Shown piece by piece: positions 1 through 58,656 of a stretch of 58,656 nt of DNA. Position 1 is the first letter of the stretch. Every line of letters begins with the position of its first letter. The translations under genes and the position numbers were made by a program. Source of the DNA: a virus (lineage: Duplodnaviria > Caudoviricetes); the IMG/VR virus record IMGVR_UViG_3300029226_000028, positions 1-58,656 of that record; one strand, given 5' to 3'. The notes under the pieces were generated by a model. That model was given only the letters and a program-made list of their open reading frames with translations. It was not told the DNA's origin and searched no databases.

Positions 1-167
1 TCTGTCCGGTCGTCGTGTTGGAAACAACTGTCCCTGCATTGATCACGTCAGTCTCAAGGACCGACCGATCAGGACCGAACGACACGAAGACCGTCGCACT
101 GGTCCTGATCGGTCGGTCCTTGCGACTGACGTGATCAGGACCAGTGCGACGGTCTTCGTGTCGTTCG
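1..167. repeat. Terminal direct repeat (left copy); assembly overlap indicating a circular or permuted complete genome
   Basis: 1-167 is identical to 58490-58656 except position 54 (T) vs 58543 (G). Confidence 0.95.
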
Positions 168-343
168 GTCCTGATCACGTCAGTCGCACCAACCAGAACA
201 AAACTAAGCTGTGCCATGGTGATGGCTTCAGGGATATAGCGAAGGACGAAGTTGTCAGCAGCAGTCGGGTTTTCAATAACGATGCCAGCAAGTGCAGTGC
301 CACCGCCACCGTCGTTTTGACCATATGCTTCCTGCAGTCCCAT
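1..343 (-). CDS. 5' part of a putative virion structural protein spanning the origin (continues to 58371; ~153 aa joined)
   Basis: ATG at 343 reads MGLQEAYGQNDGGGGTALAGIVIENPT... without a stop to position 1, in frame with ORF 58371..58574 across the terminal repeat. Confidence 0.7.
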   Translation of the reverse strand, partial: MGLQEAYGQNDGGGGTALAGIVIENPTAADNFVLRYIPEAITMAQLSFVLVGATDVIRTERHEDRRTGPDHVSRKDRPIRTSATVFVSFGPDRSVLETDVINAGTVVSNTTTGQ

Positions 344-347
344 GGGT

Positions 348-707
348 TCAAGTCTCGTTAAAGGTTGCCACCATCTGATAGTGTGTCGCCACATCAATGC
401 CAGCTGGTGTTGCACGGACAGTCTGTGTGTTTGCAGCCCAAGACACCGTCATGGGGTCAGCTGCGTCGATGGTTGGTTGGGGCGGGTCTTCAAAGTTGGG
501 GGAATTGTTCACAGTCGCAATTTCAATCGCAACCGTTCCAGCTGTCGGCACTGCAGGGGTCGTGCCACCTGCATCGGCATAGAACCGGATGCCCACAAAG
601 CAATGCGGGTTGATCGTGTTGCCTGTCAGTTCAGATGGATCAGCAATCGGTGTGATCGGACCCATGACCACTGATGTGGTCTTATCTGGACCGCGACGGG
701 CGTTCAT
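348..707 (-). CDS. Hypothetical beta-rich virion protein
   Basis: ATG at 707 overlaps the upstream TGA (ATGA); T/A/P/V-rich; lies in the structural operon. Confidence 0.65.
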   Translation of the reverse strand: MNARRGPDKTTSVVMGPITPIADPSELTGNTINPHCFVGIRFYADAGGTTPAVPTAGTVAIEIATVNNSPNFEDPPQPTIDAADPMTVSWAANTQTVRATPAGIDVATHYQMVATFNET

Positions 708-1339
708 TGTGCAAGGCTTTCGTTCATCTGCTTTGGAAGCTGCTTCCAATAGACGTTCAGGGGCGACACAGTGAAGTCAGACGGTGCTGTGGTGATGTCA
801 GGGGTGCCACGGGACACCATTGCGCCTTCAGCGGCTTCACCAACGGAACCATCGCCTGTGCCGGTCCAACCGTTCGTCATCGCAGCCACACTGTCAGCGC
901 GACCACGAAGCTTGCCGTCGATCCAGAAGCGAAGCTGTCGTTTGCCGGGATTGACGGCAATCACAAGATGAAGAATGGAACCTATCAGCCCAAGCTTGCC
1001 AATCGCGATGTCACTGATGTCAACACCGGCATTGCCAGCTGCATCACCAGCAACGATTGAAAAGGTGTCACTGTCCAAGCAGACCTTGATGCCTGTCACT
1101 GCATCACCGAATTCAAAGACCAGACCGGACGCAGCCAGACCAGTGATTTGGATTTCGGTTTCGAATGTAGCGGGAAGACCTTGAAGACCATGGTCGGTGA
1201 TTTCAGCTGGCACGTCTATGGTGCCAGCGCCAGAAATAAAGGACCGGGATTTGTCAAGATCAATTGCTGGGTTGCGAAAGGAACGTGTCCGTTCCCTTGC
1301 ATGGTAGGATGCAGCTTGTTCCCATTCAGTCAACGCCAT
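704..1339 (-). CDS. Putative virion protein, possibly LamG/concanavalin-like
   Basis: 211 aa ORF; HLVIAV...LRFWIDGKL resembles LamG strands; coupled to its neighbours. Confidence 0.55.
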   Translation of the reverse strand: MALTEWEQAASYHARERTRSFRNPAIDLDKSRSFISGAGTIDVPAEITDHGLQGLPATFETEIQITGLAASGLVFEFGDAVTGIKVCLDSDTFSIVAGDAAGNAGVDISDIAIGKLGLIGSILHLVIAVNPGKRQLRFWIDGKLRGRADSVAAMTNGWTGTGDGSVGEAAEGAMVSRGTPDITTAPSDFTVSPLNVYWKQLPKQMNESLAQ

Positions 1340-2037
1340 CAGGTTGCACCGGGTGCTTTGCCTGCAGCAGAAGCAGCAGCTTTGCCAGCACCAGTCATGT
1401 CACGAACGACACGTTTTGTGCCGTGACCCAGCTTGGGCATTGCAGCTTGGTCAAGGGGTGACTTGGCTGCTTGCATCAGCAAGTCTTTCAGTTGTGCACC
1501 ATTGCTGGCACGTGTAGCGCGACCAGCGATCTGGGATTGGATGTGATGCATGATGCCACGCTGATTGTCTTTGGAAGAACGCTTCAGGGGTGCGTGCATC
1601 GACAACATCTTGTGAAGGTGTTTATTGGCAATCACCAATCGCTTGTCAGCTTCAGTCTTCACTTCGTTCAGCATTTCGATTTCAGCTTGGGCTGCAAGAA
1701 CATCTGGATGATCACGACCAGTGCCGACTTCAGCATCAGGATCGACTTCATCTTCAGGCTTGTCACCATCGCCTTCACCAGCAGCAGCCAGTTCAGCAGC
1801 AGCGGCAATTTCTTCAGGGGAAGTGCCGACGTCAGACTTTTCACCAGCGGTGACGTCTTCGACTTCAAGCACGGGATTTGTCCGGGTGAACAGGGGTGCA
1901 GCTTCAGTGATGTCAGCACGCTTCAGTTCAGGGTTGGCGGTTGCTTCCTGCATGGTGTCCACTTTGGGAAGACCATCTGCAGTCCACTGTTCGTCGTCTG
2001 CCACGTCAAGCGCGGTCAGTGCTTCTTTGATGTTCAT
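1339..2037 (-). CDS. Conserved phage hypothetical protein downstream of the capsid gene
   Basis: 232 aa; N-terminal LDxxDDxxWTxDGLP motif, acidic linker, coiled coil; AAAGGA RBS. Confidence 0.75.
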   Translation of the reverse strand: MNIKEALTALDVADDEQWTADGLPKVDTMQEATANPELKRADITEAAPLFTRTNPVLEVEDVTAGEKSDVGTSPEEIAAAAELAAAGEGDGDKPEDEVDPDAEVGTGRDHPDVLAAQAEIEMLNEVKTEADKRLVIANKHLHKMLSMHAPLKRSSKDNQRGIMHHIQSQIAGRATRASNGAQLKDLLMQAAKSPLDQAAMPKLGHGTKRVVRDMTGAGKAAASAAGKAPGAT

Positions 2038-2061
2038 TGGTTTTTCCTTTTGGGTTCTGGT

Positions 2062-2515: not shown

Positions 2516-3556
2516 TTACGCTTCGCGGCTGATCAAACGGGCGATCTTGATCTGCTTGCGTTCCTTGGCGATACGGGACCAAGAACCAGCTGCAGACAGA
2601 ACCGCGTTCGCAGGACCGGCAACCGACAGTGCGCCGGTATACTGGTGACCCTTGGGGTGGAAGCCCCAGCGGATACGGTTCCAAAGAACGTCCTGACCTG
2701 CACCGTTACCAGCACCGGCTTGGCGCTGGACTTCAGTCGGCACATCAGGTGAACCCTGACCGAACAGAATGGCACCAGCACCGAACATCCACGTTTCGTA
2801 AATGTTGGCCGAAGGCGAAGGAACACCGTCATCGACGATCACCATCCGACCCAAGAAAGTCGGGATGTTCACGACACCGTTGGCATCGGGAATGAAGTCG
2901 ATCAGGTTGTTCTTCTGCGCACGGGCATAAACGACCGAATGCATCATGACCATCGTCAGGTCTTCCATGCTGTCACCCATGGTCAGGGTGCTGTCGATGA
3001 AAGCTTCTGCCGAAAAGTCGGTCACACCAGCGGTGTAGGACGCGCCAGTGATGTCCACAGTCATGTCGTTCTGCAAGTGCTGATCGCCACCACCGGGTGC
3101 AGCAGCGTTGTCAGCGAACAGACCGTTCACGACAGCGACAAATGCATCCTGTTGTTTGCGAACCCACCAGTCAGAAACACGGGCAGAAATTGCAGCAAGC
3201 GGGTCATCACCGGAAAGCAATTTGGAAAGCTGCGAAGCCGACCAAGATTTGTTCCGTTCCAGACGGGTGCTGATTTCAGCCAGCGCGTCGATGCCAGCAG
3301 GGGTCGGGTCATCAGAACCACCGGAAATGCCGTGATGGTCAGTTTCCGTTGCAAGGTTTTCGGTTTCAGCGTCGTCCAGATCGTCATAGACGGGCATGTT
3401 GAACGACAGACCGCCACCATTCAGCTGACCGGAAAATTCGCTGTCAACGACAACGGCACCGGATCGGATCAGGCGGGATTTGACTTCGGTTTCACGCAGG
3501 GTGTTACTAGTGAAAATTTCGGGGGTGACCACGTCGGCCAAAAGTGCTGTTGCCAT
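2516..3556 (-). CDS. Major capsid protein
   Basis: 346 aa; LADVVTPEIF, GG..FNMP, MHS.VY, PTFLGRMVIVDDGVP and HPKG motifs; follows the scaffold; strong RBS. Confidence 0.92.
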   Translation of the reverse strand: MATALLADVVTPEIFTSNTLRETEVKSRLIRSGAVVVDSEFSGQLNGGGLSFNMPVYDDLDDAETENLATETDHHGISGGSDDPTPAGIDALAEISTRLERNKSWSASQLSKLLSGDDPLAAISARVSDWWVRKQQDAFVAVVNGLFADNAAAPGGGDQHLQNDMTVDITGASYTAGVTDFSAEAFIDSTLTMGDSMEDLTMVMMHSVVYARAQKNNLIDFIPDANGVVNIPTFLGRMVIVDDGVPSPSANIYETWMFGAGAILFGQGSPDVPTEVQRQAGAGNGAGQDVLWNRIRWGFHPKGHQYTGALSVAGPANAVLSAAGSWSRIAKERKQIKIARLISREA

Positions 3557-3706
3557 GGGATGTTCCTTTCAAGGTGAATGTCACGGCTGTGAATTGGGTG
3601 TTCCAAACGCAGCCCCATGGCCTGTTCGGGTGATCGAAGGCAGATGCCATGCATGCGCCTTTGATCCTGATTTACACGCCTGATTGGTCAAGCGCAAGGA
3701 AAAACT

Positions 3707-10539: not shown

Positions 10540-12072
10540 TCAATAATCGCCTGTCGTTCGTCCGATCTTGCCGTGTTTGCCGACTGACCGGACCTTGTAG
10601 CGAACTTCATCAGCGATGTGGTCTTCAGCATCGGTGTCAACATCGTCCATGTCTTTATCATCACGGGGCAACACTGGGATCGTTCGCATGAACTGGGTGC
10701 ATGTGTCAAACACAAACAGACCTGCATGTTCCCTTGGTGTGCCATCGTCATTCGGATGTGCATTGCTGAACCATTCGCGCATGACCTGCCAGCCAGTTTT
10801 TCTGGACCCCGGTGATTTGTCAGCACGCATCCACTGCAGACCTTTGAACTTCTGCCCCTTGATCCGAACCATCTTATACATTGACGCGGCGATGGAATGG
10901 TTGTCTTCCACAGCGAAGATGGCGCTGTCAGCAACACCTGCCTTGACCCGGCTGATGTTCCCATTGCGGAAACCCCAACTGATTTCACGTTCGATGATCC
11001 CTTTGGTGATCATGTCAGCGCCAAGCTTCAGCCCTTTGTTGGGCTTCCCATTCCAGCCATACCATTCAGCGATCCTGAACAGGTCACCCCGGACAGTCGA
11101 TCTGATCGTGCCATCACGAAGGCGAACATCTGATCCATCAGAAGCAGCCCACCAACCAACACTGAATGGTGCCGATGATCCCCAATCGAATGATCTATCA
11201 ATGCGCCATGTCGGTGGGATGTCGAACGGTGCACAAAGGTTGTGGGTTGGTGACCAGACGTCATCGAACATGCCGCCTGCAACGATGTCCCATGATCCAT
11301 GAAGCCATGCCTTCAGTTCTGCATCAGATGAAGCCGATGCACGAATGTTCGTGATGTAGTCAGGGTCAGCATCAAGAAGGATCAGGTTTTCTGCCAGATA
11401 ACCATGGATCGCCACCCTTGCCGGTTCAAGTTTGCCGTCGTCGTCATAGCTGTCCGTGATCACCTGATATCGGGAACCGGGCAACCTGAAGCGGTGCTTC
11501 ACCCAGTTGTGTCCGGGACCATAGGGATTGGTCGTCGATCTGATCCGTTTCGGCACACCCTTGACGGATGTCCGATTGGTAGAAAACATCTTCTTGTAGC
11601 CTTCATCATTCGACCAGTTGCAAAGTTCTTCCCAGCCGATCCACGGATATTCGTGCCCGTGATAATTGTCATAGTCCGACACACGCTTGAACTGCCTGAA
11701 CAGCAGCACTTCACCTGTTGGCCATTTCCAATAATGTTCGGAATGATTGAATCGGGGGTTCTTCCCAGTTTGGGAAAACCACTTGGATGATTTGGTGATG
11801 ACGTCGGTCAGCTGCTTATAGGTCTGACGAAACAGGATGCCTTTCCATGCGGCACCATGCCCGACACAGCAATCCTTTTCGAAGTCCATCAGCAGCGCAT
11901 CGGTCTTGCCGGGTCCACGTGTCCCTTCGAACAGAACTTCAGGGATCGGGCACATCAGGAAATCTTCCTGTGAACCAAGTTGCGGCACCCAGACCGGATC
12001 ATCAGGGATGATCAGTTTGGCCTTCTTGCGCTTCGCTAGATTGTGAACAAGTAGGTCATCACCCTTGCGCAT
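10540..12072 (-). CDS. terL: Terminase large subunit
   Basis: Walker A GTRGPGKT, WEE Walker B, TTNPYGPGH, DWGSSAPF and DHIADEVRY nuclease motifs; start could be 12102. Confidence 0.95.
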   Translation of the reverse strand: MRKGDDLLVHNLAKRKKAKLIIPDDPVWVPQLGSQEDFLMCPIPEVLFEGTRGPGKTDALLMDFEKDCCVGHGAAWKGILFRQTYKQLTDVITKSSKWFSQTGKNPRFNHSEHYWKWPTGEVLLFRQFKRVSDYDNYHGHEYPWIGWEELCNWSNDEGYKKMFSTNRTSVKGVPKRIRSTTNPYGPGHNWVKHRFRLPGSRYQVITDSYDDDGKLEPARVAIHGYLAENLILLDADPDYITNIRASASSDAELKAWLHGSWDIVAGGMFDDVWSPTHNLCAPFDIPPTWRIDRSFDWGSSAPFSVGWWAASDGSDVRLRDGTIRSTVRGDLFRIAEWYGWNGKPNKGLKLGADMITKGIIEREISWGFRNGNISRVKAGVADSAIFAVEDNHSIAASMYKMVRIKGQKFKGLQWMRADKSPGSRKTGWQVMREWFSNAHPNDDGTPREHAGLFVFDTCTQFMRTIPVLPRDDKDMDDVDTDAEDHIADEVRYKVRSVGKHGKIGRTTGDY

Positions 12073-12679
12073 CTTCAGCTTCCTGTTCAGCCTGATGATC
12101 AAGCATTCGTTGACGTGACTTCGCAGCGATCACAGACCATTCTTCCAGCGTGACAGTTGGGGGTGACAGGATCACACCACCACCAGACGTGATGTCCAGT
12201 GCCGACTTGTCGCGGTATTCGGGATCATGTCGTGCCAGCATCTTCACAGCCAGCGCTGTTTCCATTGTGGTCTTGGTTCCGACTTCATCACCGTCCTTGT
12301 TGAAGACCGGGTTGTCATAGCCTTCCATGGCACGCAGTTCGATCTTCTGGATGATGTCCTTGGCATGTTGTGCAATCGTTTCTTCGACCACGTCATTGAA
12401 ATCTTTATCCGCTTCACGGTGCACACCGATGGTGGACAAAGCGATCTTCGCATCCTTCGCAGCCAAATTGATTTTGCCGCTGGACAGAAGCGAAACCAGA
12501 AACACGGATTTCAGATTGTCATCAAACTTCTTGCGCCGATGACGCTTGCGGGTTTCACGCCACAACGTTGGATCGGCTTCAAGGGTCTTGTCCTTCATTC
12601 GGGAAAGGTCTTTGCTGATGCCAGTGAACCGGGGATCAGTGTCGTCGAACGCTGCTGTTTCTTCTGGTTTATCACTCAT
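12059..12679 (-). CDS. terS: Terminase small subunit
   Basis: HTH-like N-half, ELRAMEGY...KMLARHDPEYRD; directly upstream of terL. Confidence 0.75.
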   Translation of the reverse strand: MSDKPEETAAFDDTDPRFTGISKDLSRMKDKTLEADPTLWRETRKRHRRKKFDDNLKSVFLVSLLSSGKINLAAKDAKIALSTIGVHREADKDFNDVVEETIAQHAKDIIQKIELRAMEGYDNPVFNKDGDEVGTKTTMETALAVKMLARHDPEYRDKSALDITSGGGVILSPPTVTLEEWSVIAAKSRQRMLDHQAEQEAEDAQG

Positions 12680-12814: not shown

Positions 12815-13060
12815 AAGGTCTATCAGTTAAAAAATGGAATTCCTTTAATTTCAATAAGTTATCCTTTAATTGATATACTTGATAGACTTCAACTAAGTTC
12901 TAAATCTTTTTGAAAGAAAATATATTTCATAAAGCCCCATATGCTCATATGCTGCGCACAAAAGTTTCACCCCTATCACCTATCACATCTATCATTCTTG
13001 GGCTTTTCCAGCAATATCAAGGACATGCGCTGATATACTTTGGGCCAATTGATAGACCTA
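12815..13060. repeat. AT-rich non-coding locus with GATAGAC/CTATCA boxes (cluster 1)
   Basis: aggtctatca, tgatatact, gatagact, ctatca x3 and gatagacct; 28-bp block shared with 38325-38352. Confidence 0.7.
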
Positions 13061-14674: not shown

Positions 14675-14868
14675 CAGTCTATCCTTTCGCCACGTCTGGC
14701 CAAGATGCCATGGATGACATTGAAGACCTTGGTTTGAGTTTCACCCAAAGTCTTGAACCCATCGTTCCGTCCCATCTGCCTGATCTTCGCACGAAGCTTG
14801 TCAGACGACTTCCACTGCAGGTGCCGGGACACATTGAACCCCTGTCGCTTTCCCATAAATGCCATCAC
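14674..14868 (-). CDS. Small basic hypothetical protein
   Basis: 64 aa, overlapping stop/start on both sides. Confidence 0.55.
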   Translation of the reverse strand: MMAFMGKRQGFNVSRHLQWKSSDKLRAKIRQMGRNDGFKTLGETQTKVFNVIHGILARRGERID

Positions 14869-15914
14869 AGTTCATCCTTGAATTCGGCACCAACAGCTTC
14901 AAACACAGCATCAGGATCGTTGGACACCTTCATGATTTCATTGCGGTTGAAACGCTGCTGTTCAATGGCTGCATTCCATGCCGTGACTTCGATCAGGCTG
15001 TTCACTTCAGTGGTGATCAGTTCCCCGATCACAGATGGTGTCAGCGCATCCAGTTCCCATGATTGGTCACCATGATCCCTGATATAGTTCGGGGCACGGC
15101 TGTCGGTTTCCTTGGCAGGATTTGGTGGTGGATCGTATTGCAGCACCTGATCCATGTTCAAAGCGATCCGACGAATGTCGATCAGTTCACCACTGAACAG
15201 TTCCAGCCGTTTGTGGTTGTCACGGGTCATGTCGATGCCACTAGGGTCGTGGTCACCAAGGTGGATCAGCACGCAGTCCTTGCCACGTTCCCCGGCTTCC
15301 CTGAAGCGGTTGCCAGCAGCCCAAGCAGCTGATGACGACATGTATCCCTTGCAGGCCATGAAGGGCACCTGAAGCTTGTTGCAGGGACGTTCGATCACCG
15401 ATGACAATGCATCCTTTTCCACTCACACTTCGACATAGGTCTGCTGACCAGCCCACAGGTTTTCAGTGTAATGAAGATGGATGTTGGACAGCACGTCCAT
15501 TGGGTCTGGCTGGATATAGGGTTCATCAATCACCCGACCCCGGTCTTCGATCCGTTCGAAGGACATTAGACCGGCAAGCCGTGCATCAGTGATGATCCCA
15601 CCAAGCCGTTTATAGGACTGAACGGTGTTCGGGAAACCCGGCACGCCTGACACAAACTGATAATACAATTGGCGCAACGTCAGCATGAAGCCTTGCTTTT
15701 CATATTCATCCAGAATGCTGTTCGCATGCATGATGATTTCCATGTGCGCCGGGGTGAATTTCTTGTCAACATAGACCTGATGATTGGCGTCGTTTTCTTG
15801 CCGTTCACCACATAGGTCGCAGAAGACCGTGCCCACTTCATTGTGATTGCCACACCCTTCGGTGCATTCAATCGCGGTTTCATCCACCGATCCGTCTGGA
15901 TTATGCAGGACCAT
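14865..15914 (-). pseudogene. Toprim-domain (Topo VI-A/JetD-like) protein interrupted by one in-frame TGA at 15423-15425
   Basis: ORFs 15423..15914 and 14865..15422 are in the same frame: YVEV*VEKDAL, where the family motif is VEVWVEKDAL; also LTLRQLYY, GDHDPSGIDM and WELDAL. Confidence 0.8.
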
Positions 15915-17213: not shown

Positions 17214-17453
17214 TTAGTTGATTGCAGCGGTGCCAGCGTGGGTCGCTGTCGGGATTGGCAGGACATAGAAAGGTTTGCCCATTCCGTCCAGACCACCTTC
17301 GATGATCAGACCCAGCTTCTTGCCGGTGCGGATCGCTGCTGAAACGGTATTGGAACGACCACGAACCGGCTGAAAGAACATTGGGATGATGTCATTGCCA
17401 GCTTTGGCGAAGTCGATCATGTCGGTCAGCATTGTCTGGGTGGCGGTTTTCAT
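17214..17453 (-). CDS. Hypothetical protein (possible winged-helix)
   Basis: First gene after a promoter cassette copy; 79 aa. Confidence 0.7.
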   Translation of the reverse strand: MKTATQTMLTDMIDFAKAGNDIIPMFFQPVRGRSNTVSAAIRTGKKLGLIIEGGLDGMGKPFYVLPIPTATHAGTAAIN

Positions 17454-17458
17454 GGTGT

Positions 17459-17530
17459 GATCCTTTTCTGATGACCCTTTGTCGCATACATCCAGACAGA
17501 ACGCAACAACTGAATTGTGTTCATTTCAAG
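17459..17530 (-). promoter_or_regulatory. Repeated early promoter/RBS cassette
   Basis: TGAAATGAACACAATT..GTTGTTGCGTTCTGTCTG..TATGCGACAAAGGGTCATC-AGAAAAGGAT. Confidence 0.8.
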
Positions 17531-17531
17531 A

Positions 17532-17765
17532 TCACAGCAGCGCCTTCAGATCAGATGCCATGCCATGGTTCCGAAGAAGTTCGGTGGCTTGGCTGATGGT
17601 CAGGGGCGAAGGTTCAGTGCCTTTATGCCCACAGGCAAGATACAGCAGCTTGGCGATCTTCTTGCCACGTTCAGACAGAAGCAGCGCTTCAGTCACATGC
17701 TGTGCTTCGCGTTCAGGCGTCATTCTCATAACGATGCGTCTGACTGGTCCGGTCGATTTGGTCAT
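17532..17765 (-). CDS. Hypothetical protein
   Basis: AAAAGGAT RBS; MTKSTGPV... Confidence 0.65.
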   Translation of the reverse strand: MTKSTGPVRRIVMRMTPEREAQHVTEALLLSERGKKIAKLLYLACGHKGTEPSPLTISQATELLRNHGMASDLKALL

Positions 17766-17971: not shown

Positions 17972-18429
17972 GCCGCGACGAATTCGGTCTTCAGGTCATA
18001 CTTGTAAAGCGTCCGGTTGCAATGACGTGGACCGCGTTCCTTCGGATCGTTGGTCATGATGCAGATCGTTGGCTGAATATAGACCCGTGTGTCAGGGTGG
18101 AAGCCAGCAGGTGACTGCAGTTCGTTGGTGTCGCAGATCACAAAGCGTGTGTCGATGTAAACCAGATCAGCAGCAACCGTCTTGCGATAGTTGATGATGG
18201 TGTGGCGCATGTTCGACAGGGTCACATCCAAGTTCTTGTATTCTTCAGCAGCCTTGGCGCGAAGATCGTCGTCGCCTTCATATATGGACATGTCAGCGAA
18301 GATTGCTGTCAGGCGGATCGCATCAGCATCTGATTGCGCAACTTCTTCTTCAGTCGCGGCTTCGAACGTGGCTTCAAGTTCAGCCAGTTCAGCGATCAGG
18401 GGTGCTTTGTCTACAAAAGTTCGTGCCAT
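17968..18429 (-). CDS. Hypothetical protein
   Basis: First gene after a cassette copy; helical N-half. Confidence 0.7.
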   Translation of the reverse strand: MARTFVDKAPLIAELAELEATFEAATEEEVAQSDADAIRLTAIFADMSIYEGDDDLRAKAAEEYKNLDVTLSNMRHTIINYRKTVAADLVYIDTRFVICDTNELQSPAGFHPDTRVYIQPTICIMTNDPKERGPRHCNRTLYKYDLKTEFVAA

Positions 18430-18430
18430 C

Positions 18431-18510
18431 GGGGTCATCCTTTTCTAAGTTGATGACCCCTTATCGCATAGGTTCAGACAAAACGCAACAACTCAATTGT
18501 GTTCATTTCA
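18431..18510 (-). promoter_or_regulatory. Repeated early promoter plus leader hairpin/RBS cassette
   Basis: TTGCGT-N17-GATAAG, then GGGGTCATC-AACTTAGAAAAG-GATGACCCC. Confidence 0.85.
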
Positions 18511-18600
18511 TGGCGTCACAATAACCTTCATTCAGGTCACTTCGCAGCTGATCACATGACTGCTGAAAGATGCCCAAGATATATCCGATATAATACGCCA

Positions 18601-18894: not shown

Positions 18895-19667
18895 GCCACT
18901 TCCTCCAGGAATGGTGGAACTTCAAGACCGTTTTCGATCCAGTATCCCTTGCCTTCGACTGGCGTCTGATACCGCTTGAACTGGACGATCTGTTCACGCC
19001 ATTCCAGCGACTTGTCCGGGTCAATGAAATACCACTTGCCGCTGTCAGCCAAGACCAACGTTTCCGGGTCGCAGGCTATGACCAGCGTGTCCGGTTCACA
19101 GGGTGCATGCTTGCCACCGGCAAAGATGTATTCCTTCCACGGCACGAAGCAGGTGCCATCGTCCCTGATCTTCAGGAAGCCCCAAGCATTGATCTTGGGT
19201 CCGGTGATGATGATGGTCCAAGCGATACCGGGCACCAGCTGCCACTGCTTGCCGGGAAGCCACCCACCGTCGTCCTGTTCGCGCATGATCGCCCGTTCCT
19301 TGCCACGTGCCAACACGCGGTGCAGGTGGGATGATGGTCGATAGTGCCAGCGCCATGCACGGACGATGTTCCGTTTCTTCGCATTGATCACGATGTCATC
19401 GCTGAAGGTTTCTTCTTCGATGTAAGTGGTCAGGGGGAAGGTCCAGAAGTTCCATGGATGATTGTGGGGGTCACGGTCTGCGTCACCCCGGTGGAACATG
19501 TGCAATCGAAGGCTGGCACCATCGGGGGTGCCGAACCTGATCCGGGTCATGTAGGGTGTGTCATGTTCGCTGTCCACGCCATAGATCGTCATGAACATAA
19601 AATAGTGCCACATGATGTGGACCTTGGTCAGCAGTTTGATCATTGTCTTCTTCCTTCCATTTGCCAA
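18891..19667 (-). CDS. Cupin-like putative metal-binding protein
   Basis: LH.FHR.D.DRDPHNHPW.F...YIEE...HRV...WT...TGP...WGF. Confidence 0.65.
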   Translation of the reverse strand: MANGRKKTMIKLLTKVHIMWHYFMFMTIYGVDSEHDTPYMTRIRFGTPDGASLRLHMFHRGDADRDPHNHPWNFWTFPLTTYIEEETFSDDIVINAKKRNIVRAWRWHYRPSSHLHRVLARGKERAIMREQDDGGWLPGKQWQLVPGIAWTIIITGPKINAWGFLKIRDDGTCFVPWKEYIFAGGKHAPCEPDTLVIACDPETLVLADSGKWYFIDPDKSLEWREQIVQFKRYQTPVEGKGYWIENGLEVPPFLEEVA

Positions 19668-21220: not shown

Positions 21221-21221
21221 T

Positions 21222-38480: not shown

Positions 38481-38945
38481 TTATTGGATTTCATAGTGGG
38501 GTCCGTCGATGAAGTCGGGACCGGCATGTCGAACGCAATAGTCAGCGACCGCCTTTTTCATGGTGCCGGGTTGGTGCCCAAAGTCATTGAAATCGACGTC
38601 CCAGACGCCACCCCAACGCAAGACCAGACCGACTTCCTTGGCTGCACGGTTCACTGCCAGCGCCACAGGATAGATCAAAGGCCATTCCCAGCGTGGTCCA
38701 CCGTTGGCATAAGGGACAAGGTCAACCGCGTGACCGAACCCATCCTTCTGCACAAGGTGCATGCTGTTCATGGTCTTGGATGCGCCGATCCTGACCAGTT
38801 CCTTTTGTTCAGTCCGGGTTCGAACACCCGACGTCACGCTGAAGTCTTGGGTGGTGTAAAGGATCGCCTTCTTGACCACCTTGACCAGTTCAGGGTGAAC
38901 ACCTTTCAGGCGACGTTTCGATGCGGTTCCTAGTTGATAACTCAT
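38481..38945 (-). CDS. Endolysin, M15 family (L-Ala-D-Glu peptidase-like)
   Basis: L.GVHPEL, G.RT..Q, SKTMNS.H, GHAVD, RWGG.W and DGPHYE. Confidence 0.92.
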   Translation of the reverse strand: MSYQLGTASKRRLKGVHPELVKVVKKAILYTTQDFSVTSGVRTRTEQKELVRIGASKTMNSMHLVQKDGFGHAVDLVPYANGGPRWEWPLIYPVALAVNRAAKEVGLVLRWGGVWDVDFNDFGHQPGTMKKAVADYCVRHAGPDFIDGPHYEIQ

Positions 38946-40555
38946 AGTTCAGCCCTCCATTGGCCATGTTTCATGGTGATGATTGCACGCTTCCCATTCT
39001 CATAAGTGACGATATGGGAATGTGACCAAGACGAAGGTCCAGTGTTGAATTCCATATCCAACTTGGAACTTGTCCCTGCCACATATTGTCCATCGACGAT
39101 TGCAGCTGAATGGGTGTGTGCACTGTTACCCTTCAAGCCCATCTTGGACAAATTCATTGGTGTTCCACGGGCACCGTTTGGCCCAAGGTCACCATGCATT
39201 CCGTGTTCGATCCCAAGGTGCACCCAGCTTTCGTCTTCACGAAGATAGGTGACGCCATCAGGTGCCTTGGCACGATGCATCGCCCATTCCGTGGTCAGCC
39301 AGTTGCTGTCCCGTGCCTTGATGGCGTTGTATGCTGCCAGCTGCGCTTCAAGGAAATAGATCGCATTGGTTGGGTCGGATTTATAGTCAGCTTCACGCAG
39401 CCATCGCAGAAAGGCATTGTCATGATTGCTGTTGACGACAATGGTTTGACACCAGTCGCGGTCTGCATAATGTAGGAAGTCAGAAGCGTCCTGCATTTCA
39501 TCTTCGACATTGAACATGCCAGTGATGAAGCGCTTGAACATTCGATGTGGATTGCCACGGTCATGGTGGTTGCGTGCCCTGAAGTCTACCAGATCGTGGA
39601 TGGTCTGATATCTGGGACGAAGGGTGTCCAACATGCCACCGGGTTCCCACGAAGCGTCCTTGATGTTTTCGTCGATCATCAGTGCATGGATGTCACCCCA
39701 TGTGATCACCCCAACCGGCACACCGTTGATCACGCGACCCCCTGCGATCTTCATGTCAAGATCATAGATGGTTCCATCTTCCCCACCGTTCAGCTGTCGG
39801 CACCACCAGTCGCCATCGCTGTTCACTTCGACCAGAAGGGCACCATAGACGTGGTGATGCTCTGCAAGCAGCCCTGCACGCTTCTGGATGTAGTTCCGGG
39901 TTGTGACGGTGCCTGTGGTGTAAAGGAACTTGCAGTGGTCCTTGTGGGACGTTGGAACGCTTTGCATCGCCATCTTGGCGTGTGGATAGATCGCTGAATT
40001 GGCACCCGTGTGACCTTCAAGGCCGGTCAGGGGTCGTGCAGCGGTTGGAAGGGTGTTGTGTTCCCCACACCAGATCAGGCCGGGTGCCAGCTGGATGCGT
40101 TCGTCCGACTGGTCAAAGTATGGTTCGACCCGGTGGTCATACCACAGACTTCTGTCAGGATCGAAGCCATAACGCTTGGGGGTGTGGGTTCCACGCTTCA
40201 CAGCTTTCTTGCCATAGGCGTGGATGTTGTAGGAATATGATGCGACATACATCGTCGCGTCCAGATGTTCAGACATTGCTGTCAGATTTTCCCAGAAGGG
40301 TTCGAACAGGTGCGTGTTGGATTGGGCTGATGTCAGGATGTAGCGTGCAATTTCGTCACCCTTGGGCAACTTGTTGACGATCATTTCCCGGCTGTTTATT
40401 GATCCAGCCACCAAAGGCTTTTCGATCAACAACTTCTTCATATGAAATCGAACTGTCCCACGGGCAAGGCCAGTTTCACGTTGAATTGCTGCGACGTTGT
40501 CACCGCCAAGTTTGATATAGGCGGCTTCCACCACTTCATATGTTGATGCAGGCAT
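38942..40555 (-). CDS. T5 A1-like metallophosphoesterase/nuclease with N-terminal HTH
   Basis: TSAQ.NT, GDIH, HDL.DF..RNHH, SNHD, HGD.GPNG.RG, HTHS and GPSSWS.SH.V.Y.NGKR. Confidence 0.75.
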   Translation of the reverse strand: MPASTYEVVEAAYIKLGGDNVAAIQRETGLARGTVRFHMKKLLIEKPLVAGSINSREMIVNKLPKGDEIARYILTSAQSNTHLFEPFWENLTAMSEHLDATMYVASYSYNIHAYGKKAVKRGTHTPKRYGFDPDRSLWYDHRVEPYFDQSDERIQLAPGLIWCGEHNTLPTAARPLTGLEGHTGANSAIYPHAKMAMQSVPTSHKDHCKFLYTTGTVTTRNYIQKRAGLLAEHHHVYGALLVEVNSDGDWWCRQLNGGEDGTIYDLDMKIAGGRVINGVPVGVITWGDIHALMIDENIKDASWEPGGMLDTLRPRYQTIHDLVDFRARNHHDRGNPHRMFKRFITGMFNVEDEMQDASDFLHYADRDWCQTIVVNSNHDNAFLRWLREADYKSDPTNAIYFLEAQLAAYNAIKARDSNWLTTEWAMHRAKAPDGVTYLREDESWVHLGIEHGMHGDLGPNGARGTPMNLSKMGLKGNSAHTHSAAIVDGQYVAGTSSKLDMEFNTGPSSWSHSHIVTYENGKRAIITMKHGQWRAEL

Positions 40556-41527: not shown

Positions 41528-41815
41528 TTAACTGTTCCTTATTGATATTTCATCGGTCTGGTTTTTTGTTTCACGTGTTTGTGTGAAAGTGCTTGCACCA
41601 AAATAGGCCAATATCACTGAAGCCCAAACACCAAACACAGTGCCCAAGACAAACGACATGGCCTGAACGCGATCCGCCACGCCCGTGAAGGTCATACCAG
41701 CAACCACAAGGACCATGGCACCCACTGACAGGAACCAGAAGGACAGCCACGCCATCTTGCGACGGTTCTTGAACTGATCTTTCTGTTGGTTATTGGTCAG
41801 GTTTGTTTGTGTCAT
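41528..41815 (-). CDS. Putative holin (2 TM)
   Basis: RRKMAW, two TM helices, AYFG; heads the lysis cassette. Confidence 0.65.
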   Translation of the reverse strand: MTQTNLTNNQQKDQFKNRRKMAWLSFWFLSVGAMVLVVAGMTFTGVADRVQAMSFVLGTVFGVWASVILAYFGASTFTQTRETKNQTDEISIRNS

Positions 41816-44778: not shown

Positions 44779-44788
44779 GCTTTATCTT

Positions 44789-45592
44789 TCAAATCTTGCT
44801 TGTGAATGGGTTGCGTGCAGGAACCAGTGGGCAACCCCCGTATTGTGGACCATTGGTGAATTTCGACTTGCATGTTGCAAAGCTGTGATCACATCCCTGA
44901 ACTAAATCAACAGTCAGTCCAGTGTCAATGCTGCTGAAGGGATAGGTGACCGTGATATCCAGACCAATGATGCTTGTGATCATTCGCGCTTCACCCGTTG
45001 TCGTAATGCGAAGCATACCAGCTGACAGGTCTGCAGGAACCTGTGTGATCGCCGCCACGGTGATGATGTTGTTCAGGAAGGATGTGATGGTCGTGGTTTC
45101 CTTGAAGGACGCTTCAAGGACGCCACAGCGGCTGTCATATAGGATATGGTTGCAAGGTGCCTGATAACGTGGTGAAGGGGTCGTGCCAGTTAGGATATAG
45201 CCAAAGATGGCTGGCACCCGAACCTTAGCAATCCGGCCTTCCACTGTGAAGGATGTGACACGTCCTTTCCACAAGGTGACAGTGTCGTTCAGATCATTGG
45301 CATGGGCACGAATTATTTCCAATGTCAAGCTTGGTGGTGACTGATCATAACCATAATCTTGAACCATTGGATCAGCAAATGGAAGGCTGACTTCCAAAGC
45401 CAGCTGACTTTCTTCTTGTGTCCCAACCTTCAAAACTGATCTGGTGATGGCAATGGGTGTATATACATCACCATTGACAGTCACTGTTTCCGAATAGGAT
45501 GTGTAACGATAAGTCTTATATGTCCCAACAAAACGATAAACTTCAATCGGGGCACCACCTTGGACACTGCCTTCATTATCTTGATATGCCAT
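44789..45592 (-). CDS. Baseplate hub protein (DUF2163/BR0599, GTA g13-like)
   Basis: YQ..C.H.LYD..CG and GCDHSFATCKSKF.N...YGG.P.VP. Confidence 0.88.
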   Translation of the reverse strand: MAYQDNEGSVQGGAPIEVYRFVGTYKTYRYTSYSETVTVNGDVYTPIAITRSVLKVGTQEESQLALEVSLPFADPMVQDYGYDQSPPSLTLEIIRAHANDLNDTVTLWKGRVTSFTVEGRIAKVRVPAIFGYILTGTTPSPRYQAPCNHILYDSRCGVLEASFKETTTITSFLNNIITVAAITQVPADLSAGMLRITTTGEARMITSIIGLDITVTYPFSSIDTGLTVDLVQGCDHSFATCKSKFTNGPQYGGCPLVPARNPFTSKI

Positions 45593-56902: not shown

Positions 56903-56945
56903 CAGTTAGTCCTTTCGATTGGGTCGCATAGTAGCGGGTTCATTC

Positions 56946-57203
56946 TCAATTGGCAATTTCGAATTGGCTGTCTGTCTGGTGCAGCAGTTCGTCCGGGTCG
57001 TCTGTCAGCGGGATCGAATAAAATTCCTGCACGATTAAAAGCATCGCGGCAAGATCACCTTCCACCCCACGTTCATGTGACACTGTATGGGTCCAGATAA
57101 GAACGACCAAAACCTGTTCGTCTGGAACCCCATAGTCAAAAGCCACCTTGGTCGCATAGATAAGCAACGTCATGGCGTCGTCGTTTGAAAGTTCATCTGC
57201 CAT
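56946..57203 (-). CDS. Small acidic hypothetical protein
   Basis: 85 aa; AAAGGGG RBS. Confidence 0.6.
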   Translation of the reverse strand: MADELSNDDAMTLLIYATKVAFDYGVPDEQVLVVLIWTHTVSHERGVEGDLAAMLLIVQEFYSIPLTDDPDELLHQTDSQFEIAN

Positions 57204-57216
57204 GCCCGTTCCCCTT

Positions 57217-58362
57217 TCATGTCACCATAACCCGTCTTCCACCGTAGGTCACTATCAACCTTGGACGATCCACCAATGCGAAGGCTGCTGACTTCCAATT
57301 GCGGTTGGCCAACCCGCTTTGCGGTGCCTGTTGACCGGTGATGATCCCGCTGTCAATTGTATACCATGGCGCGTTGACCTGTGCCTGAACAATCGCGGAT
57401 ATGTCGGGGGTTTTGTAGGTGACGTTCGCGATGAACTGTGGCACCACCCAATCGACGGTGGCTAACAATGGAATTCCAGAATTAAGACCTAACGAACCAC
57501 GAAGCCAGTCATATGGTCCGGGATAGTTCTGCCAGCCACCTGCTGTGTCTTCGCCTTTATGATACAACCTGCCATTGTTTAAGAACGCATTGTGGTGGCG
57601 CACCGATACATAATCAGCATTGTTGGCGGTATAGTCCACTTCAATGATGAAGAAATAATCCGTCAGCGCCACCAGTGTTGGGTTGACTGCGAATGTGAAC
57701 CCAATGGTGCTGATGGTTGGTGCAAGTGCTATGGTGGAAAGCAGCACATCGTTGGACACCGCGATGTCCACACCATCAGGAATGTCCCGTCCTTTATGCT
57801 GTGTCACACCTTGAATTCGAACCCTTGCGCTTCCAGCTGGATTGCCGTTGCGAAGCATTTCATAGAAGACGAAATCGACTTCCATGTTGCCAGTGCGCGT
57901 TGTGACCTGTTGTGCCATTTGTTCGCGCCAAGTTCCAATCTGTTTCATGATCCAGCTGGCATTGGCTGCACGGGTTGCCCCACTGCCAATCGCGGTGAAC
58001 GTCGTCGATAGGACACCCATGCTTTGATTGGACCAGCGGTCTTGTCGCCAATTGTTGAACGTGGAATATGGTGCGATCAATGGTTCACCATCAAACGTGT
58101 CGCGGTCGTGGGCTGTGATCGGAATTGTGATCGACCCAGCAGCGCTGGTGTCGCGTGCTTCGACCGTCATCACGGCTGATTCAATGATTGATCCGGGTGG
58201 AATTTGCGCATCGAATATGTGGGCACTGTATGCTTGCAGACCCATGAAAAAGTTTCCTGCCCTGATGCGCGTATCAAATAGCCATTGGACATTGGCACCT
58301 TGGAAGACATGACCCCAATGACCATATAAACCGTTCAAAATTCGTGTGTCTGATGTCGGCAT
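57217..58362 (-). CDS. Putative capsid-associated adhesin/fibre (beta-sandwich domains)
   Basis: 381 aa; IPPGS.I.SA...TPDIS.IVQ..VN...RPRL.VTY framing an inserted beta-rich domain. Confidence 0.6.
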   Translation of the reverse strand: MPTSDTRILNGLYGHWGHVFQGANVQWLFDTRIRAGNFFMGLQAYSAHIFDAQIPPGSIIESAVMTVEARDTSAAGSITIPITAHDRDTFDGEPLIAPYSTFNNWRQDRWSNQSMGVLSTTFTAIGSGATRAANASWIMKQIGTWREQMAQQVTTRTGNMEVDFVFYEMLRNGNPAGSARVRIQGVTQHKGRDIPDGVDIAVSNDVLLSTIALAPTISTIGFTFAVNPTLVALTDYFFIIEVDYTANNADYVSVRHHNAFLNNGRLYHKGEDTAGGWQNYPGPYDWLRGSLGLNSGIPLLATVDWVVPQFIANVTYKTPDISAIVQAQVNAPWYTIDSGIITGQQAPQSGLANRNWKSAAFALVDRPRLIVTYGGRRVMVT

Positions 58363-58370
58363 GGTTTCAC

Positions 58371-58489
58371 CTAATCATAGTTGAAGGCTGCACTGACATG
58401 CAGTTGGGTGGGTGTTCCGACAAGTGCCGTGACCCTGACCGCAAGCCAGCTGCCAGCTGGGATGGAAGCATTGTCGAAGGAAGTGATGA
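58371..58489 (-). CDS. 3' part of the origin-spanning structural protein (starts at 343)
   Basis: In frame with 343..1 via the terminal overlap. Confidence 0.7.
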
Positions 58490-58656
58490 TCTGTCCGGTC
58501 GTCGTGTTGGAAACAACTGTCCCTGCATTGATCACGTCAGTCGCAAGGACCGACCGATCAGGACCGAACGACACGAAGACCGTCGCACTGGTCCTGATCG
58601 GTCGGTCCTTGCGACTGACGTGATCAGGACCAGTGCGACGGTCTTCGTGTCGTTCG
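58490..58656. repeat. Terminal direct repeat (right copy)
   Basis: Matches 1-167 with one mismatch. Confidence 0.95.

What the first reader, a model, noticed from the sequence alone, without database searches (positions are those of the whole stretch)
1..58656. Near-complete genome-wide loss of the trinucleotide GAG/CTC on both strands
Seen: reading the capsid gene (2516-3556) base by base I find no GAG and no CTC. Across the genome I noticed only a few dozen by eye, whereas about 1 per 32 bp (roughly 1,800) is expected at near-even composition. Glu is almost always GAA and Leu CTC is essentially unused, and the gap also covers codon junctions, so it is not simple codon bias. Both orientations are missing although nearly all genes are on one strand, which points to DNA-level rather than mRNA-level selection. 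Several survivors sit at constrained spots: ATGAG starts (12675, 13922, 25905, 38941) and GGAGG RBSs (18902, 38953). Two more coincide with suspected recent errors or mutations (54, 15422). Established: phages usually avoid 4-6-bp restriction sites. Inference: erasing a 3-mer in all flanking contexts suggests an undescribed nuclease, nickase or DNA-modifying toxin with a GAG core target, either host-encoded or encoded by the phage itself.
Basis: partly seen in the sequence, partly recalled or inferred. Interest (0 to 1): 0.88.

Follow-up and report, generated by a model that had tools for sequence, protein, structure and literature searches.

The report
Marine phage purged of GAG/CTC
A 58.6-kb marine phage and its closest relatives have removed almost every copy of the three-letter DNA word GAG/CTC from both strands, which points to an unidentified factor that reads a 3-base DNA site.

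Summary
The window has 39 GAG/CTC sites against about 1,660 expected. Five complete relatives of the same phage family carry 1,615-2,866 each.

The loss is not codon bias. With amino acids and codon usage held fixed, codon junctions should carry 626 sites and carry 19. Non-coding DNA has 5 against 114-129 expected. All eight NGAG/GAGN contexts are at or below 0.04.

Proteins are conserved and recoded synonymously. Ribosome-binding sites use AAGGA, not GGAGG.

Two diverged relatives, L004 and L292 (34-77% protein identity), share the purge. The next-nearest relatives do not. A distant lineage, L157, shows a partial purge. The phage occurs in seawater runs of several studies. None of 40 listed strain variants creates a site; 4.5 were expected.

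No nuclease or methyltransferase was recognised in the phage, and the host is unknown. The best reading is DNA-level selection by an undescribed factor that reads GAG, more likely host- than phage-encoded. The agent is inferred, not shown.

The parts
1..58656 (.). Whole phage genome nearly free of GAG/CTC: 39 sites, spread evenly at 4-9 per 10 kb
   Evidence: O/E is 0.024. Five complete relatives carry 1,615-2,866 sites each.
2516..3556 (-). Major capsid gene with no GAG and no CTC
   Evidence: No survivor lies in this range. The protein is 49-67% identical to the capsids of non-depleted relatives.
10540..12102 (-). Large terminase gene, used to show synonymous recoding
   Evidence: At 20 alignment columns where Glu is conserved, relatives use GAG 410: GAA 323. 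The window has GAA in 16 of the 20. At conserved Leu columns relatives use CTC in 206 cells and the window in none.
3557..3581 (-). Example of a remodelled ribosome-binding site (GAAAGGAA) upstream of the capsid gene. It pairs with the anti-SD without containing GAG.
   Evidence: AAGG occurs upstream of 28 of 86 ORFs and AGGA upstream of 24. Only 2 ORFs have GGAGG.
18903..18905 (-). Surviving site inside a GGAGG ribosome-binding site (upstream of 18601-18894). It is also a Glu GAG codon of 18891-19667.
38941..38957 (-). Two surviving sites: the ATG|AGT start overlapping a TGA stop (38941), and the GGAGG ribosome-binding site of 38481-38945 (38955)
18492..18494 (-). Surviving site inside the 92-nt intergenic repeat D1 (5 copies). 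The same site survives at 21283-21285. The other three copies read CTG, TTC and ATG at this place.
15422..15424 (-). Surviving site created by an in-frame TGA that replaces an invariant Trp codon of a Topo VI-A/Spo11-like gene (14865-15914)
1..167 (.). Terminal direct repeat (second copy at 58490-58656). The only mismatch (54 T against 58543 G) makes CTC in one copy and CGC in the other.

Best explanation
The phage clade made of the window, L004 and L292 is under strong, continuing selection against the 3-base word GAG on either DNA strand. Any mutation that removes a site without harming a protein or a signal has been fixed. Glu is written GAA, Leu avoids CTC, neighbouring codons are chosen so that no GAG or CTC forms across a junction, and ribosome-binding sites are shortened to AAGGA.

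The most likely selective agent is a DNA-targeting factor of the host that reads only G-A-G. The host is still unknown, is marine and is probably an alphaproteobacterium. The factor could act on duplex DNA, or on either strand while it is single-stranded. It could be a frequent-cutting nickase or endonuclease, or a DNA-modifying defence enzyme.

Its effect per site must be small and additive. That fits nicks that are mostly repaired, or rare hits on exposed single strands. Fitness then rises smoothly as sites are lost, and about 40 residual sites can be tolerated.

Shown: the depletion; that it acts at the DNA level; that recoding is synonymous; its distribution among relatives; and signs of continuing purifying selection.

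Inferred: that a protein reads GAG; that it belongs to the host; and what it does to the DNA.
For: 1. Size and specificity.
- 39 sites against about 1,660 expected.
- All one-base flanking contexts are at or below 0.04.
- One-letter neighbours are not depleted: AAG/CTT 1.54, GAA/TTC 1.36, CAG/CTG 1.37, GTG/CAC 0.92.

2. The level is DNA.
- Both orientations are depleted.
- Junction frames carry 19 sites against 626 expected under a null that keeps codon usage.
- Intergenic DNA carries 5 against 114-129.

3. It is selection, not a single type of base change.
- In frame 2 (xGA|Gxx and xCT|Cxx) only the middle base can change synonymously. Those frames are as depleted as the others: 6 against 142 and 4 against 166.
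- Glu and Leu are kept at conserved TerL columns.

4. The purge is maintained over deep divergence.
- L004 has 27 sites against 392-471 expected. Its proteins are 34-77% identical to the window's.
- L292 has 4 against 247. Its proteins are 44-76% identical.
- The next-nearest tail-hub relatives have O/E 0.93-1.31 (16 loci).
- The five complete relatives have O/E 0.73-1.35.

5. The purge has arisen more than once.
- L157 (TerL 54% identical) has O/E 0.19. The contig whose TerL is 76% identical to L157's (L207) is not depleted.

6. Selection is still acting.
- 0 of the 40 strain variants listed create a site, against 4.5 expected. Only 40 of the 564 differences were printed.

7. Site avoidance is this clade's general habit.
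- CCWGG, GANTC, GTAC, CGATCG, CCCGGG, GGATCC, ATCGAT and GCCGGC are absent or nearly absent in the window, and mostly in L004 and L292 too.
- No methyltransferase gene was found.

8. Survivors sit where escape is hard: 7 ATG|AGx, 1 TGG|AGG, 6 TGA|G, 2 ribosome-binding sites and 2 in a repeated intergenic element.
Against: - No host is known. No cognate enzyme, methylation mark or host genome could be examined.
- To my recollection, no prokaryotic restriction or defence enzyme with a plain GAG specificity is described. No tool here holds REBASE.
- The main texts of two marine methylome papers do not contain the words GAG or CTC. Their supplements could not be read.
- A classical double-strand-cutting enzyme with about 1,700 sites would give an ancestor no gradual path to adapt. 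It would still kill a phage with 39 sites. The agent therefore has to be weak per site, which is an added assumption.
- About 45 window ORFs have no match in the five non-depleted relatives and have no known function. A phage-encoded agent therefore cannot be excluded.
- The 40-variant test is small, with P about 0.01.
Confidence: 0.45

Rival explanations
1. The agent is encoded by the phage. An unrecognised early protein nicks or cuts GAG or CTC and shreds host DNA (about one site per 30 bp) for nucleotide salvage. The phage tells self from host simply by lacking the word, not by modifying its DNA.
For: - The phage carries a full salvage and synthesis set: RNR, ThyX, dCMP deaminase, a dNMP-kinase-like protein and a MazG-like dATP/dGTP pyrophosphohydrolase.
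- No methyltransferase or base-modification pathway was recognised.
- About 45 ORFs are absent from the five non-depleted relatives, and most have no family.
- The clade-specific pattern, plus a second partial lineage, would fit gain of a gene.
- L157 encodes an HNH endonuclease beside its terminase.
- Virus-encoded 3-nt nickases exist: Nt.CviPII CCD and Nt.CviQII RAG (PMC3017599, passages).
- A phage HNH nickase with a GAG-containing site exists: N.phiSal2, GAG^CA (PMC3592412, passages).
Against: - No HNH, GIY-YIG, PD-(D/E)xK or other nuclease family was found in the window at E <= 0.01. The only hit is a weak Hjc-like match (E 0.004) in a gene that 67 fetched loci share.
- The one DNA-cleavage-like gene, Topo VI-A-like, is broken by a stop. 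It also occurs at 74% identity in L291, which is not depleted.
- None of the five window genes that L004 shares and the five relatives lack looks like a nuclease.
- 39 residual self sites would still be hit.
- Known viral frequent cutters protect self DNA by methylation, not by avoidance.
Confidence: 0.15
2. PAM erosion. GAG/CTC is the protospacer-adjacent motif of the host's CRISPR-Cas system. Repeated escape by PAM mutation has worn the motif away on both strands.
For: - PAMs are the best-known 2-3-bp words read by a defence protein, and they count in both orientations.
- GAG (written CTC on the target strand) is one of the PAMs studied for E. coli type I-E (PMC3764190, search listing only: 6 occurrences of 'CTC PAM'). 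That it is functional there is my recollection.
Against: - Each PAM matters only when a matching spacer exists. Selection per site is therefore weak. To my recollection, published PAM depletion in phages is modest.
- In the I-E set the main PAM is AAG, by my recollection. AAG/CTT is the most over-represented 3-mer here (1.54).
- No system that reads GAG alone is known to me.
- The 39 remaining sites still offer targets.
Confidence: 0.07
3. Another DNA-level constraint with no enzymatic attack. Examples: a host silencing or nucleoid protein, or a replication, packaging or transcription factor, that binds GAG tracts and harms the phage in proportion to the number of sites.
For: The evidence shows only that the word is harmful on either strand and in every context. 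It does not show what happens at a site.
Against: - Binding proteins with a strict 3-bp specificity and no tolerance for one-letter neighbours are not known to me.
- The company of many classical restriction-type palindromes among the avoided words points to nucleases.
Confidence: 0.15
4. Mutational bias. A context-specific deaminase or other mutator converts CTC/GAG faster than it is regenerated.
For: CTT/AAG and TTC/GAA, the C-to-T products of CTC, are over-represented at 1.54 and 1.36. The phage encodes a deaminase-fold protein that matches the dCMP deaminase family.
Against: - Frames where only the middle A or T can change synonymously are just as depleted: 6 against 142 and 4 against 166.
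- CTG/CAG, a transversion product, is equally enriched at 1.37.
- Amino acids are conserved.
- A 40-fold depletion is far beyond known mutational depletions.
- Strain variants show a mixed substitution spectrum.
Confidence: 0.04
5. A translation-level cause (tRNA supply, anticodon nucleases, avoidance of internal Shine-Dalgarno sites) or an assembly or sequencing artefact.
For: GAG and CTC codons are nearly unused. GAG is the core of the Shine-Dalgarno sequence.
Against: - Junction frames, the antisense orientation and intergenic DNA are equally depleted.
- The genome is covered by contigs of runs from at least two further studies, at depths up to about 280.
- Contigs L004 and L292, which carry other IMG/VR record prefixes, show the same purge.
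- The proteins align with their relatives with Glu and Leu retained.
Confidence: 0.01

Closest known systems
Restriction-site avoidance in phages (4-6-bp, mostly palindromic sites of host R-M systems)
   Same: A DNA word is removed from both strands by synonymous and non-coding changes. The pattern is lineage-specific and tracks the host. The same genome also avoids CCWGG, GANTC, GTAC, CGATCG, GGATCC, CCCGGG and others.
   Different: The word is only 3 bp and is not a palindrome. About 1,700 sites had to go, not tens. Ribosome-binding sites had to be rebuilt. No enzyme with this specificity is known to me (recalled, not tested).
AGCT absence in pandoravirus genomes (Poirot et al., bioRxiv 10.1101/712018; abstract read)
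   Same: A very short word is eliminated almost completely from a whole viral genome. The pattern follows clades. No known host-virus mechanism explains it.
   Different: That case is a 4-mer palindrome in giant viruses of amoebae. Here it is an asymmetric 3-mer in a 58-kb phage, and it comes together with classical restriction-site avoidance.
Frequent-cutting nickases of chloroviruses: Nt.CviPII (^CCD) and Nt.CviQII (R^AG) with cognate methyltransferases (PMC3017599, passages)
   Same: Natural enzymes that read about 3 bases and nick one strand. They show that such short specificities exist.
   Different: They are virus-encoded, and self DNA is protected by methylation. RAG includes AAG, which is enriched here. 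No homologue was found in the window.
DarT-type ssDNA ADP-ribosyltransferases (PMC11543638, passages)
   Same: An anti-phage defence that marks bases in short ssDNA motifs. DarT2 reads TNTC. DarT1 favours two G one base apart. A motif read on single strands would be selected against in both orientations.
   Different: The reported motifs are 4 bases long or relaxed. None is GAG or CTC. No link to this phage or to its host was tested.
GANTC depletion in pelagiphages and in marine Alphaproteobacteria (PMC9516812 and PMC8919816, passages)
   Same: Marine phages split into clades with and without a short motif tied to a host DNA-methylation system. The window also avoids GANTC (GAATC/GATTC: 14 against 111).
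   Different: GANTC is a 5-bp motif with a known methyltransferase (CcrM family). GAG has no known counterpart.
ACA under-representation in RNA phages exposed to MazF (bioRxiv 10.1101/2023.02.01.526697 and PMC12151602; search listing and start of the abstracts only)
   Same: Avoidance of a trinucleotide driven by a nuclease with 3-nt specificity. That the motif is ACA is my recollection.
   Different: It acts on RNA and on one strand only. Here both orientations and non-coding DNA are affected.

Membership tests
Restriction/defence-driven site avoidance | The word is far below a null that preserves codon usage and composition | tested here: met
   Junction frames: 19 sites against 626 expected. 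Total 39 against 1,658. 30 against 1,731 with relatives' codon usage.
Restriction/defence-driven site avoidance | Both orientations and non-coding DNA are affected | tested here: met
   Coding-strand GAG 29 and CTC 10. Intergenic 5 against 114-129.
Restriction/defence-driven site avoidance | The pattern is lineage-specific: close relatives share it and more distant ones do not | tested here: met
   L004 0.06 and L292 0.02. 16 loci at 0.93-1.31. Five complete relatives at 0.73-1.35. Background of 282 loci, some overlapping: median 1.03.
Restriction/defence-driven site avoidance | The host encodes an enzyme with that specificity, and the host DNA is protected | not testable with these tools
   The host is unknown. 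There is no close match in genome contigs (best 62%, mis-binned phage contigs) and no tRNA gene.
Restriction/defence-driven site avoidance | The word matches a described enzyme specificity | not tested
   No REBASE tool was available. From memory no plain GAG enzyme exists. Paper searches found none.
Codon bias or tRNA-level avoidance | Depletion is confined to in-frame codons of the coding strand | tested here: not met
   Frames 2 and 3, and the antisense word, are equally depleted.
Context-specific cytosine-deaminase hypermutation | Loss occurs only through C>T/G>A at the outer positions, so sites that can escape only through the middle base persist | tested here: not met
   Frame-2 sites: 6 against 142 and 4 against 166. 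CTG/CAG is enriched as much as the transition products.
CRISPR PAM depletion | The word equals the PAM of the host's CRISPR-Cas system, and spacers target the phage | not testable with these tools
   The host is unknown. AAG, the main type I-E PAM by my recollection, is enriched at 1.54.
Assembly or sequencing artefact | Seen in one assembly only, and predicted proteins are damaged at the affected codons | tested here: not met
   Contigs of 4 runs from 3 studies were laid on 20 kb of the window. L004 and L292 carry other IMG/VR record prefixes. Glu is retained as GAA in 16 of 20 conserved columns.
Virus-encoded frequent cutter with self-protection (chlorovirus-type R-M, T4 EndoIV-type) | A nuclease gene, plus a methyltransferase or base-modification gene, in the viral genome | tested here: not met
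   No such family was found among 86 ORFs at E <= 0.01. Many ORFs have no family, so absence is not proven.

The most novel reading that the evidence does not exclude
Self/non-self discrimination by absence of a word. The clade encodes an unrecognised nickase or nuclease with a bare GAG specificity that destroys host DNA at about one site per 30 bp. The phage is immune only because it has written GAG out of its own genome. This would be a new way for a virus to protect itself from its own host-shredding enzyme, without any DNA modification.
Probability: 0.15. Interest if true: 0.95.

Novelty: new variant of a known kind. Interest (0 to 1): 0.85.

Why it matters
Motif avoidance is the footprint that a DNA-targeting system leaves in the genomes it attacks. 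A 40-fold loss of a 3-base word is the strongest footprint of this kind that I know of in a phage. It is held across a diverged clade and is strong enough to rewrite ribosome-binding sites.

It implies a factor that reads just three bases. That is shorter than any prokaryotic restriction or defence specificity I can recall.

Finding the factor would add a new kind of defence enzyme, or a new kind of phage weapon. It could also yield a useful very frequent nickase or DNA-modifying tool.

The case also shows that scanning viral metagenomes for 3-mer outliers can uncover unknown phage-host conflicts. The distribution found here (one clade, one partial second lineage, non-depleted sister genomes) gives a concrete comparative handle for finding the gene.

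Tried and rejected
**Identifying the phage**
- Megablast against isolate phages gave only short, weak hits.
- tblastn with TerL found 661 records, all under 60% identical.

**Closer relatives**
- The TerL scan of metagenome contigs reached at most 64% identity. The scan of genome contigs reached at most 62%, in mis-binned MAG contigs of many phyla.
- The PolA scan found 10 loci at 55% or less, none depleted.
- A contig (L291) that carries the 74%-identical Topo VI-A-like gene is otherwise unrelated and is not depleted (O/E 0.74).

**Host**
- The window has no tRNA genes and no named close homologues.
- GTA-like tail families and GANTC avoidance hint at Alphaproteobacteria. That is all.
- I did not try CRISPR-spacer matching, because a sample of 400 genomes would rarely include the host.

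**A phage-encoded agent**
- Pfam, PHROGs and NCBIfam scans of all 86 ORFs found no nuclease or methyltransferase.
- Atlas look-ups named a dNMP-kinase-like protein and a cupin-like protein.
- The Topo VI-A/Spo11-like gene is broken and is also present in a non-depleted contig. I rejected it as the cause.
- The Hjc-like hit in 1339-2037 is weak, and 67 fetched loci share the gene.

**An extended motif**
- The flanks of residual sites differ between the window, L004 and L157. No consistent fourth base emerges.
- Opposite-strand survivor pairs: from the positions the closest pair is 54 bp apart, close to what I reckoned by hand for chance. No script was run, so this is uninformative.

**Literature**
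- No report of GAG/CTC avoidance turned up. These were searches of an open-access library and are no proof of absence.
- The supplementary motif tables of PMC9516812 and PMC8919816 could not be read. They might list a GAG/CTC methylation motif.

Full report
**What the window is.** It is a complete or nearly complete viral metagenome record of 58,656 bp (CheckV 93%). A 167-bp direct repeat sits at both ends. GC content is 51.8%. About 86 ORFs, all on the minus strand, cover 93% of it.

Recognised genes:
- terminase subunits, portal, a MuF-like protein and the major capsid;
- tail tube, tail chaperone and tape measure;
- GTA-like baseplate and tail genes (BR0599, phiJL001 gp84, Rcc01698-like);
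- an M15 peptidase and an Rz-like spanin;
- primase-helicase, family A DNA polymerase, SNF2 and UvrD-like helicases;
- ribonucleotide reductase, ThyX, dCMP deaminase, a dNMP-kinase-like protein and a MazG-like dATP/dGTP pyrophosphohydrolase.

The phage belongs to a large family of about 60-kb siphophages. Its TerL is 52-57% identical to those of Roseobacter, Rhodobacter and Pseudomonas phages. Five complete metagenomic relatives of 62.7-64 kb share its core genes at 30-67% identity.

Contigs of four seawater runs of one study hold its sequence, as does a subsurface run of a second study. A marine run of a third study holds a small share. Contigs of four of these runs, from the three studies, were laid on 20 kb of the window; they carry strain variants and reach depths of about 280.

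**The observation.** The + strand has 10 GAG and 29 CTC, against 831 and 821 expected. Pooled, that is 39 against 1,658.5, O/E 0.024, z -39.8. The next most depleted 3-mers are GTA/TAC at 0.53 and TAA/TTA at 0.60.

- One-letter neighbours of GAG are normal or enriched: AAG/CTT 1.54, GAA/TTC 1.36, CAG/CTG 1.37.
- All eight NGAG and GAGN contexts are at 0.01-0.04. No one or two longer restriction or BREX-type motifs can therefore explain the loss.
- The five complete relatives carry 1,615, 1,977, 2,003, 2,531 and 2,866 sites.
- Recoding the window's own proteins with the codon usage of 25 relatives gives 1,731 +/- 33 sites in coding DNA. Observed: 30.

**It is not codon bias, and it is not an RNA-level effect.** Glu is GAA 996: GAG 5, and Leu CTC is 6 of 1,353. 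When synonymous codons are permuted, amino-acid sequence and codon usage stay exactly as they are. The junction frames should then hold GAG 142 and 114, and CTC 166 and 204. They hold 6, 9, 4 and 0. The 4,215 non-coding bases hold 5 sites against 114-129 expected. Both orientations are lost, although transcription runs one way.

In frame 2 only the middle base of the word can change without changing a protein. In frames 1 and 3 only an outer base can. All frames are emptied alike. The loss is therefore not tied to one kind of base change, as a cytosine deaminase would require. It looks like selection against the word itself.

**Proteins are intact.** TerL has 20 columns where at least 70% of 40 relatives have Glu. 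In those columns the relatives write GAG 410 times and GAA 323 times. The window has GAA in 16 columns, Asp in 3 and Lys in 1. L004 has GAA in 15. At conserved Leu columns the relatives use CTC in 206 cells. The window, L004 and L157 never do.

**Consequences.** GGAG contains the word, so the usual Shine-Dalgarno core is forbidden. Upstream regions instead carry AAAGGA(A): AAGG before 28 of 86 ORFs and AGGA before 24. Only two genes keep GGAGG.

Survivors sit where escape is difficult:
- seven ATG|AGx junctions and one TGG|AGG junction, where Met and Trp have one codon and Ser AGY cannot reach TCN in one step;
- six TGA stops followed by G;
- the two GGAGG ribosome-binding sites;
- two copies of a five-copy 92-nt intergenic repeat.

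One more survivor is a polymorphism between the two end copies of the terminal repeat. Another was made by a nonsense mutation. Survivors are spread evenly, at 4-9 per 10 kb.

**Who shares it.** I computed O/E on every locus fetched.
- L003 is the same phage.
- L004 (14.4 kb, head module; proteins 34-77% identical to the window's) has 27 sites against 392-471 expected.
- L292 (7.2 kb, tail module; 44-76% identical) has 4 against 247.
- At that divergence synonymous sites are saturated. The purge must therefore be actively maintained in each lineage.
- Both relatives also lack CCWGG and nearly lack GANTC and GTAC. L004 further lacks CGATCG, CCCGGG, GGATCC, GCCGGC and GTCGAC. This suggests the same kind of host.
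- The next tier of relatives is normal. Sixteen tail-hub loci, for which one search gives 55-58% identity where it was measured, sit at 0.93-1.31. The five complete genomes sit at 0.73-1.35.
- Across 282 fetched loci of 3 kb or more the median is 1.03 and the 5th percentile 0.60. Some loci overlap or duplicate one another, so these are not independent.
- The one other outlier is L157, an 8.8-kb metagenome contig with TerL 54% identical. It has 59 sites against 307 (0.19). It uses GAA 12: GAG 1 at conserved Glu columns. It shows neither the TA depletion nor the palindrome avoidance.
- L207, whose TerL is 76% identical to L157's, is not depleted. The trait has therefore arisen at least twice and can be gained quickly.

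**Selection now.** Contigs of four runs from three studies were laid on 20 kb of the window. Of the 40 best-supported strain differences that were printed (of 564), none creates GAG or CTC. Given their substitution types, 4.5 would be expected. This is a small test, with P about 0.01.

**What does it.** Nothing in the phage explains it. No methyltransferase, HNH, GIY-YIG, PD-(D/E)xK or base-modification pathway was recognised in 86 ORFs.

The one protein with a DNA-cleavage fold is the gene at 14865-15914. Its model has pLDDT 74. Foldseek matches it to archaeal topoisomerase VI-A at E 1e-5 and also lists Spo11 and the MksG nuclease. It is cut by a TGA at an invariant Trp. It belongs to a family of at least 8,000 proteins. 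A 74%-identical copy sits in L291, which is not depleted. I therefore reject it as the cause.

About 45 ORFs have no counterpart in the five normal relatives, and most have no family. A phage-encoded agent stays possible.

The host is unknown. GTA-like tail genes and GANTC avoidance suggest a marine alphaproteobacterium (context from PMC8919816 and PMC9516812).

**My reading.** The word is read by a protein that damages or marks DNA at GAG, either on duplex DNA or on either strand when it is single-stranded. The effect per site must be small and additive. Otherwise an ancestor with about 1,700 sites could not have adapted step by step, and 39 sites would still be lethal.

This fits a frequent nickase whose nicks are mostly repaired. 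It also fits an enzyme that hits exposed single strands, such as a DarT-like ADP-ribosyltransferase. Enzymes with 3-nt reach exist: Nt.CviPII and Nt.CviQII and phage HNH nickases. DarT1 prefers two G one base apart. None of these is shown to act here.

The clade's wholesale avoidance of classical restriction sites, and its lack of any methyltransferase, make a host defence the more economical source (0.45). A phage-encoded host-shredding enzyme with self-immunity by avoidance is the boldest alternative (0.15). Other rivals:
- some non-enzymatic DNA-level constraint (0.15);
- PAM erosion (0.07);
- mutational bias (0.04);
- translation or artefact (0.01).

**Novelty.** Searches of the held library found no description of GAG/CTC avoidance. 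The nearest parallels are listed here:
- classical restriction-site avoidance;
- the unexplained loss of AGCT in pandoraviruses;
- GANTC-poor pelagiphages;
- ACA-poor RNA phages under MazF (listing only).

This is a new and extreme variant of motif avoidance. The agent behind it may be new in kind.

Noticed in passing
window 1-58656; also L004 and L292: Broad avoidance of restriction-type palindromes. CCAGG/CCTGG 1 against 137. GAATC/GATTC 14 against 111. GGCC 124 against 385. GTAC 2 against 36. CTAG 28 against 91. Zero CGATCG (72 expected), CCCGGG (54), ATCGAT (49), GGATCC (44), AGATCC (31), AGATCT (22), GCCGGC (24) and CTTCCG (23). GTCGAC 12 against 64. L004 shares most of these but not GGCC (1.1). 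L292 has no CCWGG, GANTC or GTAC.
   Followed up: partly
window 1-58656: The TA dinucleotide has O/E 0.30. The TA that remain are mostly Tyr TAT codons (TAT 340 against TAC 88, although C-ending codons are otherwise preferred) and stop codons. GTA/TAC is depleted beyond the TA effect (0.53). TA at 0.22-0.5 is common in this phage family.
   Followed up: partly
window 14865-15914 (-): A Topo VI-A/Spo11-like gene: zinc ribbon, RQLYYQF tyrosine motif and a DHDPSG Toprim motif. Foldseek E 1e-5 to M. mazei Top6A. It is interrupted by an in-frame TGA (15423-15425) at a Trp invariant in all 12 aligned sequences, so it is probably a fresh nonsense mutation or a variant. At least 8,000 homologues of 300-350 aa exist, some in alphaproteobacterial genomes.
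   Followed up: yes
window 17442-17533, 18424-18515, 21215-21306, 29264-29355, 31324-31415: Five copies of a 92-nt intergenic element (67-100% identical). Three of them are followed by near-identical small ORF starts (ATG ACC CC.). This is probably a phage promoter or operator set for early genes.
   Followed up: no
window 12870-12926 and 38296-38352: Two copies (86% identical) of an AT-rich 57-nt element. They lie in the two larger non-coding gaps and are unusually rich in TA for this genome. They could be origins or regulatory sites.
   Followed up: no
L157:1949-2347 (+): The partly GAG-depleted contig L157 encodes a 132-aa HNH endonuclease (HNH_5, E 1e-6) upstream of its terminase genes. 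The window and the held part of L004 have none.
   Followed up: partly
L035 (10.8 kb), L077 (21.5 kb), L140: Other extreme word losses occur in relatives. L035 has TAA/TTA at 0.03 of the zero-order expectation (6 copies). L077 has GGCC 2 against 84 and GATC 2 against 79. L140 has TAA at 0.28. GTAC is absent from many loci.
   Followed up: no
window 41812-45592 (-): The tail module carries GTA-like families (Rcc01698_C, Phage_BR0599, phiJL001 gp84 N). The hub protein is 49% identical to the 'GTA-like baseplate hub protein' of Pseudanabaena phage Pan1. Three genes match Pfam families defined on cyanophage Pam3. The host clue is therefore ambiguous between Alphaproteobacteria and other Gram-negative hosts.
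   Followed up: partly
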